The notes under the pieces were generated by a model. It had not been told where the DNA came from. It worked only from the letters and a program-made list of their open reading frames with translations, and searched no databases. A stretch of DNA of 64,000 nucleotides. Origin: a virus. Position numbers and translations under genes: made by a program. Positions 700 through 1,090 of this stretch are shown one piece after another; within the stretch, counting starts at the first letter, position 1; each line of letters starts with the position of its first letter. Location: positions 101,597 through 165,596 of IMG/VR virus record IMGVR_UViG_3300045988_175595; one strand, written 5' to 3'.

Positions 700-959
700 A
701 TAATAAATTAGACTTATTTTAACGTTGTCTTACCACTTGACTATCTTATATTTTAATAAGAGTAGGAATCTAACCTACGTCTACGGCTTGGAAGGCAAAT
801 CTATGCTGTTAAAGTCTAAGAAAATTATGTAAATCAAGACTCTAATGTGTTCTCCAAATAGAACGTAATATAAAAATTGACTGTATTAAAGGAATTGAAT
901 CTTAACAAAAATTTTGCTGTAAGAGTCTTAACTGTATAATAAATAAAAAGAGATTACTA

Positions 960-1090
960 AATAAAACAAGACATTATTTTCTAATGCTCTCCCAACTGAG
1001 CTATATATGTTAATACATATACTAGGATTCGAACCTAGAACCATTCGCTGTATAAGGCGTAGTTATTTGCTGTTAATGTCTTCTATGTAT
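960..1090 (-). ncRNA. Candidate Y-RNA-like (YrlA-type) ncRNA: a circularly permuted tRNA-like module (T-arm, closed acceptor hairpin, D-arm) enclosed by a long-range stem
   Basis: The minus-strand read is T-arm ctagg-ttcgaat-cctag, then tatatgt-atta-acatata (a 7-bp acceptor-like stem closed by a 4-nt loop), then ta-gctcagttgggagagc (a canonical D-arm). These are flanked by complementary segments aagacatta (1075-1083) and taatgtctt (966-976). The element lies about 450 nt downstream of the TROVE/Ro60-like gene. Confidence 0.4.

What the first reader, a model, noticed from the sequence alone, without database searches (positions are those of the whole stretch)
955..1090. Circularly permuted tRNA-like module (T-arm, closed acceptor hairpin, D-arm) enclosed by a long-range stem: the YrlA-type Y RNA architecture
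On the minus strand the order is gcgaatgg-ttctagg-ttcgaat-cctag (T-arm), then tatatgt-atta-acatata (a perfect 7-bp acceptor-like stem capped by a tetraloop), then ta-gctcagttgggagagc (a canonical D-arm). This is the reverse of the normal tRNA order. It is what you would expect if the anticodon stem were replaced by a helix that carries the RNA ends. Flanking complementary segments aagacatta / taatgtctt (1075-1083 and 966-976) can form that helix. Bacterial YrlA RNAs are described as tRNA mimics (D-arm, T-arm, acceptor stem) tethered to Ro by exactly such a stem. I could not build a convincing anticodon arm for this element, which is consistent with a tRNA mimic rather than a functional tRNA.
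Basis: partly seen in the sequence, partly recalled or inferred. Interest (0 to 1): 0.8.

Follow-up and report, generated by a model that had tools for sequence, protein, structure and literature searches.

The report
Phage Y-like RNA with tRNA mimic
The element is a real, conserved small RNA that displays a rearranged tRNA body on a stem, and it is one of 15 sister RNAs that share a previously undefined 'handle' next to a phage gene for a Ro60-like protein, so it probably identifies the missing RNA partners of a very widespread phage protein family.

Summary
On the minus strand, 1082-968 folds as a 9-bp terminal stem enclosing V loop, T arm, closed 7-bp acceptor hairpin, U8-A9 and D arm.

A model of this core finds 39 non-tRNA copies in other phage contigs. 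Pairing is 92.8% against 58.7% in shuffles, all 7 acceptor pairs covary, and the tRNA 15:48 Levitt pair covaries.

It is not a YrlA family member. It scores 36.4 bits against a 69-bit cut-off, and the GNCGAAN0-1G Ro-binding motif is absent.

Instead, the stem belongs to a distinct 'handle': WAGRC-type stem plus single-stranded ACAGCAA. This handle closes 15 modules in the window and hundreds next to DUF2828 genes, on the same strand, in viral contigs, bacterial genomes, Felix O1-like, Listeria and mycobacterial phages. Inserts are interchangeable tRNA parts.

Best reading: a new Y-RNA-like family that docks on the Ro60-like protein and presents tRNA mimics. Binding and function are inferred, not shown.

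The parts
968..1082 (-). The finding: a 115-nt module. It consists of the handle (AAGACATTA 1082-1074 paired with TAATGTCTT 976-968), single-stranded ACAGCAA (1073-1067), a 28-nt non-conserved linker, and then the permuted tRNA-like core.
1022..1038 (-). T arm: CTAGG TTCGAAT CCTAG
   Evidence: helix 1, 99.5% paired in 39 homologues
1004..1021 (-). Closed acceptor-like hairpin: TATATGT-ATTA-ACATATA. It has 7 bp and no encoded CCA.
   Evidence: (helix 2: all 7 pairs covary, 95.4% paired)
986..1003 (-). U8-A9 followed by the D arm GCTC AGTTGGGA GAGC
   Evidence: U8, A14 and G19 invariant in 39 homologues
708..819 (-). Second handle module with a permuted tRNA-like core. It has T arm GTAGG TTAGATT CCTAC, a 6-bp acceptor hairpin, a D arm, and a weak Gly-like anticodon arm upstream. 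The motif variant is ACAGCAT.
   Evidence: R1 32.4 bits, E=8e-8, not in the seed
832..933 (-). Handle module (AAGACTCT ... AGAGTCTT). The insert is not tRNA-like.
1151..1301 (-). Handle module with a 149-151 nt, AT-rich insert
1364..1417 (-). Handle module. The insert is a hairpin with a D-loop-like AAGGGTA loop.
1443..1507 (-). Handle module. The insert holds an anticodon-stem-loop mimic, ATCGA CTTTTAA TCGAT (Lys-UUU type loop).
1536..3092 (-). Gene for a 518-aa DUF2828 + DUF7788 (vWA, DxSxS MIDAS) protein with a Ro60-like ring fold. This is the proposed protein partner.
3110..3185 (-). Handle module directly upstream of the DUF2828 gene's ribosome-binding site
3488..3592 (-). Handle module (CAGCAA variant) holding a differently permuted tRNA-like body. 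The order is acceptor 3' strand TTTTTCC, ACCA, linker, acceptor 5' strand GGAGAAA, TA, D arm, then anticodon arm CTAGT CTGATAA ACTAG (GAU, Ile). There is no T arm; the handle sits in its place.
3705..3852 (-). Handle module (TAAGACACAT + TCAGCAA variant), 148 nt
3989..4057 (-). Handle module. The insert is a hairpin with a D-loop-like AATGGGTA loop.
4255..4352 (-). Handle module
4355..4445 (-). Handle module, abutting the previous one
5289..5357 (-). Handle module (TAGGTTC ... GAACCTA)
5731..5822 (-). Handle module (CCAGCAA variant)
6880..6949 (-). Handle module, the first of the array
621..7165 (-). Array of 18-19 ordinary tRNA genes among which the modules are interspersed. It is probably one transcription unit: a promoter-like site lies at 7228-7200 and a terminator-like hairpin at 611-580. 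Both are consensus matches only.
7261..8382 (-). RtcB RNA ligase gene at the head of the array. This is context only; the linkage is not general.

Best explanation
The element is a roughly 115-nt non-coding RNA. It belongs to a previously undefined Y-RNA-like family that partners the phage's Ro60-like (DUF2828/DUF7788) protein.

The RNA has two modules.

1. A 'handle'. The 5' and 3' ends pair in a 7-10 bp stem whose outer bases are conserved (5' WAGRC ... GYCUW-G 3'). The stem is followed on the 5' strand by the nearly invariant single-stranded ACAGCAA, which faces an A-rich 3' segment. I infer that this is the docking site for the Ro60-like ring, as the terminal stem of a Y RNA is for Ro60.

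2. A variable distal module that mimics tRNA or a part of it. In this copy it is the elbow-and-acceptor half of a tRNA: V loop, T arm, closed acceptor hairpin, U8, D arm. These are joined in circularly permuted order, so the handle leaves the body where the anticodon stem would be. This is the same layout as bacterial YrlA.

The RNA is probably cut out of a long tRNA-array transcript. The ribonucleoprotein would then use the tRNA mimic to engage tRNA-binding enzymes. These could be host tRNA-targeting defence nucleases or processing and repair enzymes, so the mimic would act as a decoy or adaptor during infection.

Shown: the structure, its conservation and covariation, the handle family, its two-way genomic association with DUF2828 genes, and the Ro60 fold of the protein model.

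Inferred: protein binding, processing and biological role.
For: Structure. The fold is as described. Model R1 of the core finds 39 copies of at least 46 bits that overlap no tRNA gene. In these, 92.8% of cells are paired against 58.7% in shuffles and 32-46% when partners are slid. There are 222 double-change cells against 66, and all 7 acceptor pairs covary. The Levitt pair 48:15 is U:A in 23 and C:G in 13 of 39. U8, A14 and G19 are invariant. RNAalifold recovers the handle, T arm, acceptor hairpin and D arm in 10 modules from the window, metagenomes, E. coli phage HY02 and Mycobacterium phage Faith1. ACAGCAA is invariant in all 10.

Handle family. The window holds 15 modules, all on the minus strand between 708 and 6949. 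WACAGCAW occurs 21 times against 9.4 expected. In 80 viral loci centred on DUF2828 genes there are 214 modules on the gene strand and 23 on the other strand. ACAGCAA occurs 348 times against 92, and 49% have an exact 7-nt reverse-complement partner against 3-8% in controls.

Reverse test. Of 120 viral loci found through the DNA pattern alone, 42 have the closing stem. Of those 42, 19 carry a DUF2828 gene in the few kb fetched, always on the same strand. Only 2 of the 78 without a stem do. In 80 bacterial or MAG loci there are 203 modules against 31, and 75 of 80 loci have at least one. Modules sit directly beside the gene in phages HY02, LP-048 and Faith1.

Inserts are tRNA parts. T arms occur in 60 of 268 modules against about 1 in shuffles. 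Anticodon-type hairpins occur in 86 against 11 +/- 3. D-arm-like hairpins occur in 37 against 5.5.

Literature. In Felixounavirus Bas63, the Ro60-like gp130, which lies next to the tRNA genes, counters the Ppl defence system. The authors guessed at unidentified Y RNAs (10.1101/2024.10.10.617714). In Listeria phage CKA15, abundant non-coding transcripts lie within 2 kb upstream of the Rsr-like gene (PMC12282133).
Against: There is no direct evidence of binding, of a discrete transcript, or of processing for this window.

The canonical Ro60-binding motif is absent, and the Rfam YrlA score is below threshold.

The protein has no sequence-level match to Ro60. The similarity rests on a predicted model.

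The alignment used for pair counts was fitted to the model, which favours the structure. The independent RNAalifold run uses only 10 sequences.

A test for locus-specific handle variants, which would have pointed to co-evolution with the protein, was negative: 1.71 against 1.69 identical positions.

RtcB linkage is not general: 2 of 80 loci.

About half of the modules have inserts with no recognisable tRNA part.

Modules interspersed among tRNA genes could equally be read as processing signals.
Confidence: 0.62

Rival explanations
1. It is a bona fide member of the YrlA family: an orthologous Y RNA that binds a true Ro60 orthologue through the canonical motif.
For: It has the same order of arms, the Levitt-pair behaviour reported for YrlA (PMC4201824), a sub-threshold Rfam hit at E=1.5e-5, and a Ro60-fold neighbour.
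Against: The score is 36.4 bits against a gathering score of 69, and the Rfam alignment does not use the real closing stem. GNCGAAN0-1G is absent from the family. The near-match AGCGAATG beside the T arm of this copy is not conserved in homologues. Homologous modules in HY02 and Faith1 give no YrlA hit. The protein carries no TROVE signature by Pfam.
Confidence: 0.08
2. The handles are RNA-processing punctuation. They would be stem signals for an endonuclease that dices the long tRNA-array transcript. The inserts would be spacers or tRNA debris with no protein-docking role.
For: Modules are interspersed among tRNA genes on the same strand. Of the 80 related loci, 56 have at least 3 same-strand tRNAs. 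The stems end flush, followed by a conserved G and U-rich sequence.
Against: In Faith1, three modules form their own block between the DUF2828 stop codon and a terminator, with no tRNA in the stretch read. The association follows the DUF2828 gene in both directions of the test. The inserts are under structural selection, shown by covariation and the tertiary Levitt pair. A 7-nt single-stranded motif is conserved from Actinobacteria phages to Clostridia phages, which is more than a cleavage stem needs.
Confidence: 0.12
3. It is a functional circularly permuted tRNA gene. The handle would be removed, the ends sealed (for example by the neighbouring RtcB), and the acceptor loop opened by RNase P and 3' trimming. 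This is how the permuted tRNA genes of Cyanidioschyzon merolae mature.
For: The 3' half precedes the 5' half. About 20 of 39 homologues encode NCCA right after the acceptor 3' strand. Some relatives carry a complete anticodon arm. So does window module 3488-3592. RtcB lies at the head of the array.
Against: This copy has no anticodon arm and no CCA. No bulge-helix-bulge is formed, because the handle is a continuous stem with an asymmetric loop. Most modules contain only one tRNA arm or none. RtcB is near the gene in only 2 of 80 related loci.
Confidence: 0.05
4. It is a decayed remnant of two adjacent tRNA genes: the T arm and acceptor 3' strand of the first, and the acceptor 5' strand and D arm of the second. 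It would have no function.
For: Junctions of neighbouring tRNA genes do match the core model at 37-45 bits. Chen et al. 2014 flagged the same artefact. Encoded NCCA in half of the homologues fits an origin from such a junction.
Against: The acceptor strands are perfectly complementary here and covary in 39 homologues, whereas true junctions show mismatches. No hit of at least 46 bits overlaps a tRNA gene. All are closed by the same handle. The architecture is conserved in phages of Firmicutes, Proteobacteria and Actinobacteria.
Confidence: 0.02
5. It is a free-standing tRNA decoy that works without the DUF2828 protein. It would soak up a host tRNA-targeting nuclease or modification enzyme, and the handle would serve only to stabilise the RNA ends.
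For: Inserts mimic tRNA arms. Anticodon-type loops of Lys-UUU, Asn-GUU, Ser-GCU and Tyr-GUA are the commonest. From general knowledge, several of these tRNAs are targets of anticodon nucleases.
Against: The sequence conservation of the handle and its tight genomic coupling to one protein family are not explained by stability alone.
Confidence: 0.1

Closest known systems
YrlA (Rfam RF02553), bacterial Y RNA bound by the Ro60 orthologue Rsr (Chen et al. 2014, PMC4201824)
   Same: The RNA is modular. A terminal stem formed by the two ends carries a tRNA-like domain in the order V loop, T arm, closed acceptor stem, D arm. The 15:48 Levitt pair covaries. It is encoded on the same strand, within a few kb of a Ro60-fold protein gene. 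In this window, as in Salmonella, an RtcB gene is nearby.
   Different: The protein-binding module is different: an AGRC/GYCU stem plus ACAGCAA instead of GNCGAAN0-1G. The score is below the Rfam threshold. The partner is DUF2828/DUF7788 rather than a TROVE-annotated Ro60. There are up to 15 paralogous RNAs per locus instead of one to four. Most paralogues carry other inserts.
Metazoan and Deinococcus Y RNAs with Ro60, and Yrl1/Yrl2 of Thermus phage phiLo (PMC12135203)
   Same: It is about 100 nt long. [quoted passage not shown] There is precedent for a phage-encoded Ro60 with its own Y-like RNAs.
   Different: Those RNAs carry the CGAA-type motif and bind canonical Ro60. They do not share the handle and are not arrayed among tRNA genes.
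Circularly permuted tRNA genes of Cyanidioschyzon merolae and some archaea (from general knowledge; reviewed in PMC4090602)
   Same: The 3' half of the tRNA body is encoded upstream of the 5' half, and a short linker closes the acceptor stem.
   Different: Those genes encode complete tRNAs. Their termini form a bulge-helix-bulge that is cut and ligated through a circular intermediate. Here the anticodon arm is missing, the termini form a plain conserved stem, and no splicing endonuclease context exists.
Speculated but unidentified Y RNAs of phage Ro60-like proteins: Bas63 gp130 (10.1101/2024.10.10.617714) and Listeria phage CKA15_055 (PMC12282133)
   Same: These are the same protein family in the same genomic setting, next to the tRNA array. 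Both papers guess that nearby RNAs are Y RNAs. Handle modules lie exactly there in the related phages HY02 and LP-048.
   Different: Neither paper defines a sequence, a motif or a structure. This analysis supplies candidate RNAs but no experiment.

Membership tests
YrlA (RF02553) | Reaches the curated Rfam gathering score | tested here: not met
   36.4 bits against 69, E=1.5e-5. Homologous modules in HY02 and Faith1 give no hit at E<=0.01. No hit at gathering score in 8 related loci.
YrlA (RF02553) | tRNA-like domain in the order V loop, T arm, closed acceptor stem, D arm, with tRNA-type invariant bases and a covarying 15:48 pair | tested here: met
   In this copy the 15:48 pair is G:U, one of 3 exceptions among 39.
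YrlA (RF02553) | GNCGAAN0-1G motif near the 5' end (the proposed Rsr contact) | tested here: not met
   1 of 268 modules against 5.5 in shuffles. The 5' region carries ACAGCAA instead.
YrlA (RF02553) | Encoded within about 4 kb of a Ro60 (TROVE) orthologue, on the same strand | tested here: inconclusive
   The position and strand criteria are met: the gene lies at 1536-3092(-). The protein is DUF2828/DUF7788 by Pfam. It is Ro60-like only by predicted fold, not by sequence.
YrlA (RF02553) | Bound by Rsr; modified by TruB or DusA; in some species cleaved by RNase P | not testable with these tools
   This needs immunoprecipitation, modification mapping and RNase P assays. The 7-bp acceptor stem makes RNase P cleavage plausible by analogy with M. 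smegmatis YrlA.
Y RNA (general) | 80-130 nt, with the 5' and 3' ends paired in a long stem and a large internal loop | tested here: met
   115 nt with a 9-bp terminal stem. The true RNA ends are unknown.
Y RNA (general) | Conserved bulged helix with the Ro60 contact sequence (GGUCCGA type) | tested here: not met
   The handle is a continuous stem with different conserved bases.
Permuted tRNA gene (C. merolae type) | Complete tRNA body including an anticodon arm | tested here: not met
   RNAalifold predicts no helix between ACAGCAA and the T arm. ARAGORN calls no tRNA here.
Permuted tRNA gene (C. merolae type) | Bulge-helix-bulge formed by leader and trailer | tested here: not met
   The terminal stem is 7-10 continuous pairs followed by an asymmetric loop.
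Ro60 / TROVE protein family (for the neighbouring gene) | HEAT-repeat ring plus vWA domain with a MIDAS motif | tested here: met
Ro60 / TROVE protein family (for the neighbouring gene) | Sequence-level match to TROVE (PF05731) or to solved Ro60 proteins | tested here: not met
   Pfam lists only DUF2828, DUF7788 and weak vWA. phmmer and a 34-sequence profile find no Ro60 in the PDB.

The most novel reading that the evidence does not exclude
DUF2828 proteins and handle RNAs would form a very widespread, so far undescribed phage and prophage ribonucleoprotein. One Ro60-like ring would dock a whole set of small RNAs through a universal handle (AGRC stem plus ACAGCAA). Each RNA would present a different tRNA arm or permuted tRNA body: T/acceptor/D; acceptor/D/anticodon; or lone Lys, Asn, Ser or Tyr anticodon loops. 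Together they would act as a panel of decoys or adaptors against host tRNA-directed defences, which could explain why Bas63 gp130 counters the Ppl system.
Probability: 0.3. Interest if true: 0.9.

Novelty: new variant of a known kind. Interest (0 to 1): 0.8.

Why it matters
Ro60-like DUF2828 proteins are encoded by at least 711 sequenced phages. These include Felix O1-like, Listeria P100-like, Kayvirus-like and cluster L mycobacteriophages. The proteins also occur in many gut and rumen Clostridia.

Two recent papers guessed that these proteins must have Y RNA partners but could not name them. One showed that the protein counters a bacterial defence system.

A defined handle motif and a list of candidate RNAs make that question directly testable in E. 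coli, Salmonella, Listeria and M. smegmatis phages.

The finding would also extend the rule that bacterial Y RNAs mimic tRNA. Here it becomes a modular system in which the same docking stem can replace the anticodon arm, the T arm or the acceptor stem of a tRNA body.

On the practical side, some of these modules appear to be annotated as tRNA or pseudo-tRNA genes in phage genomes. This inflates tRNA counts.

Tried and rejected
1. Thermodynamic significance alone. The MFE z-score is -1.73, which is not convincing.

2. YrlA membership. The score is below threshold, and the Rfam alignment misplaces the stem.

3. A canonical CGAA-type Ro motif. This copy has AGCGAATG next to the T arm. It is not conserved in homologues, and the motif is depleted in the family.

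4. A hairpin-ribozyme reading of module 836-929. By eye it resembled the motifs A-GUC, UAUAUUAC and GAGAACACA. An Rfam scan at E<=10 found no ribozyme family there, so the idea was dropped.

5. Identity with skipping-rope RNA, another phage tRNA-array motif. Its consensus is different.

6. Conserved linkage to RtcB. It is present here and in Listeria phage LP-048, but in only 2 of 80 related loci.

7. Locus-specific handle variants as a sign of RNA-protein co-evolution. No signal was found.

8. A conserved anticodon-arm analogue between ACAGCAA and the T arm. Many relatives have a small hairpin there. RNAalifold finds nothing conserved in the subfamily of this element.

9. Identifying the phage by DNA similarity. 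There are only tRNA-sized matches in the phage collection. The identical protein lies on a 245-kb metagenomic contig, and the nearest named relatives are from Clostridium.

10. The supplementary tables of Chen et al. 2014 are not held. I could not check whether any DUF2828 phage was among their 22 phages.
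Full report
**What is in the sequence**

The window is AT-rich phage DNA. The identical protein of the neighbouring gene lies on a 245-kb metagenomic contig. On the minus strand between 621 and 7165 there are 18 ARAGORN tRNA genes, or 19 by Rfam.

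The flagged stretch reads, 5' to 3' on the minus strand:
- AAGACATTA (1082-1074)
- ACAGCAA (1073-1067)
- a 28-nt linker
- CTAGG-TTCGAAT-CCTAG (1038-1022)
- TATATGT-ATTA-ACATATA (1021-1004)
- TA
- GCTC-AGTTGGGA-GAGC (1001-986)
- ATTAGAAAA
- TAATGTCTT (976-968)

The minimum-free-energy fold is exactly this structure. Its z-score is weak (-1.73), so energy alone does not establish it.

**Is the tRNA-like core more than chance?**

Rfam's YrlA model matches 960-1069(-) at 36.4 bits, E=1.5e-5. This is below the 69-bit gathering score.

I built a covariance model (R1) of the core from 26 such elements found inside related loci. The core comprises the V loop, T arm, acceptor hairpin, U8-N9 and D arm. 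R1 gave these results:
- In the window it scores 60.8 bits on the finding, which was in the seed.
- It scores 32.4 bits (E=8e-8) on a second element at 716-783 that was not in the seed.
- Weaker hits (37-45 bits) are junctions of adjacent ordinary tRNA genes. Chen et al. 2014 also warned of this artefact.
- Above 46 bits there are 39 hits in 39 searched sources. None overlaps an ARAGORN tRNA, and 13 were not in the seed.

On their alignment:
- 92.8% of cells form standard pairs, against 58.7% in shuffles and 32-46% when partners are slid.
- 222 cells carry changes on both sides, against 66 in shuffles.
- All seven acceptor pairs covary.
- The tertiary Levitt pair behaves as in tRNA and YrlA. 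Position 48 with position 15 is U:A in 23, C:G in 13 and other in 3. The window copy is U:G, one of the three.
- U8, A14 and G19 are invariant.

The alignment was fitted to the model, which favours the structure. An independent RNAalifold run on ten full-length modules recovers the same four helices. The ten come from the window, metagenomes, E. coli phage HY02 and Mycobacterium phage Faith1.

**The stem is a family-wide handle**

The closing stem is not idiosyncratic. Every one of 15 modules on the minus strand between 708 and 6949 has the same plan:
- a 7-10 bp stem whose 5' strand starts (T/A)AG(A/G)(C/T);
- immediately after it, (W)ACAGCAA or a close variant (CCAGCAA, TCAGCAA, ACAGCAT);
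- a variable insert of about 25-130 nt;
- an A-rich run;
- the exact complement of the stem;
- then G and U-rich sequence.

The variable stem positions differ between paralogues but always pair. WACAGCAW occurs 21 times in the window against 9.4 expected. Twelve of these lie on the minus strand within the array.

**Association with a Ro60-like gene, tested in both directions**

The gene at 1536-3092(-) encodes a 518-aa protein with Pfam DUF2828 (1.7e-30) and DUF7788 (1.9e-52), plus weak vWA matches. PHROGs calls the family 'RNA-binding protein'.

An AlphaFold2 model built on 34 homologues has pLDDT 85 and pTM 0.86:
- Foldseek's four best PDB matches are all Ro60, with E down to 1.2e-7 over about 590 columns.
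- Sequence searches of the PDB find no Ro60.

The protein is therefore a distant structural relative of Ro60, not a recognisable TROVE protein.

From the protein to the RNA:
- In 80 IMG/VR loci centred on homologues, handle modules number 214 on the gene strand and 23 on the other. They mostly lie in tandem just upstream of the gene and among tRNA genes.
- ACAGCAA alone is 348 against 92. Of these, 49% have an exact 7-nt reverse-complement partner for the preceding 7-mer, against 3-8% in three controls.
- In 80 bacterial or MAG loci the counts are 203 against 31, and 75 loci have at least one module.

From the RNA to the protein:
- Of these 42, 19 carry a DUF2828 gene within the few kb fetched, always on the same strand.
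- Only 2 of the 78 without a stem do.

In named phages the modules sit right next to the gene:
- four in E. coli phage HY02, one of them with a permuted tRNA-like core;
- three in Listeria phage LP-048;
- three in Mycobacterium phage Faith1, forming a block between the stop codon and a terminator, the middle one with a permuted core.

The HY02 block is conserved in 234 records, including Salmonella phage Felix O1.

**What the inserts are**

Among 268 distinct modules:
- 60 contain a T-arm-type hairpin, against about 1 in shuffled inserts.
- 86 contain a hairpin of at least 5 bp with a 7-nt YU-NNN-R-N loop, against 11 +/- 3.
- 37 contain a D-arm-like hairpin, against 5.5 +/- 1.7.

The commonest anticodon-type loops are CTTTTAA (Lys), CTGTTAA (Asn), CTGCTAA (Ser) and CTGTAAA (Tyr).

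Some modules hold whole tRNA-like bodies attached to the handle in different ways:
- In normal order, the handle stands in for the acceptor stem.
- In YrlA-like order, the handle leaves from the anticodon side. This is the finding.
- In window module 3488-3592 the order is acceptor 3' strand, ACCA, linker, acceptor 5' strand, D arm, Ile-type anticodon arm. There is no T arm and no GG in the D loop, so the handle replaces the T arm.

About half of the YrlA-like copies encode NCCA after the acceptor 3' strand. The window copy does not.

**Comparison with what is known**

YrlA RNAs were defined next to TROVE-annotated Ro60 genes. They carry GNCGAAN0-1G near the 5' end (PMC4201824). That motif is essentially absent here: 1 of 268 modules. 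Modules in HY02 and Faith1 do not hit the YrlA model at all.

At module positions, the only Rfam family that reached its gathering score was tRNA, matching tRNA-like inserts inside a few modules of eight related loci. In the window no family other than the sub-threshold YrlA and tRNA matches fell on a module at E<=10 within 1-3400. The skipping-rope motif found nearby in one locus is a different RNA.

In the paper library 'DUF2828' appears only in unrelated papers. Three papers touch the protein:
- LeBron gp53, 'Ro-like RNA-binding protein', is toxic when over-expressed (PMC13148394).
- In Listeria phage CKA15, abundant non-coding transcripts lie within 2 kb upstream of the Rsr-like CKA15_055. 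The authors suggest these may be Y RNAs, and the protein is found in virions (PMC12282133).
- In Bas63, the Ro60-like gp130 lies next to the tRNA genes and counters the Ppl defence system. The authors suggest that some annotated tRNAs may be Y RNAs (10.1101/2024.10.10.617714).

None of these defines the RNAs. The library is incomplete, so an earlier description elsewhere cannot be excluded.

**Mechanism**

Shown:
- a conserved, covarying RNA with a tRNA-like elbow and acceptor;
- a shared handle with a sequence-conserved single-stranded motif;
- two-way genomic coupling to a Ro60-fold protein;
- placement inside a tRNA array. The array has a promoter-like site at 7228-7200 and a terminator-like hairpin at 611-580, both only consensus matches.

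Inferred:
- The handle docks on the Ro60-like ring, as Y RNA stems dock on Ro60.
- The modules are excised from the polycistronic transcript.
- The tRNA mimic lets the particle engage tRNA-binding enzymes.

A decoy or adaptor role in phage-host conflict is the most economical reading, for three reasons. The Bas63 result points that way. Lys, Asn, Tyr and Ser anticodon-loop mimics are prevalent. RtcB and other RNA-repair genes lie nearby in this window and in LP-048.

Against over-reading:
- RtcB linkage is rare among relatives.
- Half of the inserts are unclassified.
- A test for locus-specific handle variants was negative.

**Rivals**

I considered five rivals: true YrlA membership, processing punctuation, a functional permuted tRNA gene, a decayed tRNA pair, and a protein-independent decoy. 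Each is weighed in its own section of this report.

It is still a plausible origin. The junction of two tandem copies of one tRNA gene has exactly this order of parts and often an encoded CCA.

**Verdict**

The element is best filed as a new variant of the Ro60/Y RNA theme: a DUF2828-associated handle RNA with a YrlA-like tRNA mimic. It is one of 15 handle modules in this window and one of hundreds elsewhere.

Noticed in passing
window 10182-10246 (-), with ORFs 10293-11465 (-) and 11437-11907 (-): A RAGATH-18 RNA (69.2 bits) lies immediately downstream of a TnpB/OrfB_IS605-type gene. That gene is preceded by a serine resolvase gene, so this looks like an IS607-like insertion inside the phage, a few kb upstream of the tRNA array.
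   Followed up: partly
window 4848-4915 (-): Rfam calls a tRNA here (39.2 bits) that ARAGORN does not report. It may be a degenerate tRNA or another tRNA-like module.
   Followed up: no
window 3488-3592 (-): This handle module has a tRNA-like body permuted at the T arm. It contains an acceptor hairpin with encoded ACCA, a D arm without GG, and an Ile-GAU anticodon arm. The handle takes the place of the T arm.
   Followed up: partly
L036 6730-7107 (+): A viral contig related through the DUF2828 gene encodes a full bacterial class B RNase P RNA (238 bits) inside its tRNA array.
   Followed up: no
L202 4475-5026 (+) (Listeria phage LP-048): A ROOL-like RNA (90 bits, just under the 99.1 gathering score) lies between the tRNA array and the handle modules. 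It may be one of the very abundant non-coding transcripts reported for the related phage CKA15.
   Followed up: no
L057 3758-3959 (+) and L003 14123-14206 (+): A HEARO RNA (159.6 bits) and a skipping-rope RNA (75 bits) occur in the tRNA-array regions of two related viral contigs.
   Followed up: partly
alignment A4 columns 30-33 (39 permuted cores from related loci): About half of the permuted tRNA-like cores encode N-CCA directly after the acceptor 3' strand. After RNase P cleavage and trimming they could expose a tRNA-like CCA end. The window copy lacks this.
   Followed up: partly
L086 157-714 (-) (contig labelled GVMAG): Three tandem 50-nt handle modules occur with no DUF2828 gene in the 11 kb fetched. 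This is a possible case of handles without the protein nearby.
   Followed up: no
L201 7375-8420 and matching Felixounavirus records: In several Felix O1-like genome records the stretch holding the handle modules carries annotations such as tRNA-OTHER or tRNA-Pseudo. Some modules are therefore probably counted as tRNA genes.
   Followed up: partly
L211 2795-2916 and L220 1412-1659 (contigs binned as Promethearchaeota MAGs): DUF2828 genes with handle modules beside them also occur on contigs assigned to Asgard archaeal MAGs. These may be viral contigs, or the system may extend beyond bacteria.
   Followed up: no
window 3217-3355 (-): A 46-codon ORF with a good ribosome-binding site sits between tRNA-Lys and the handle module upstream of the DUF2828 gene. 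It has no Pfam match.
   Followed up: partly
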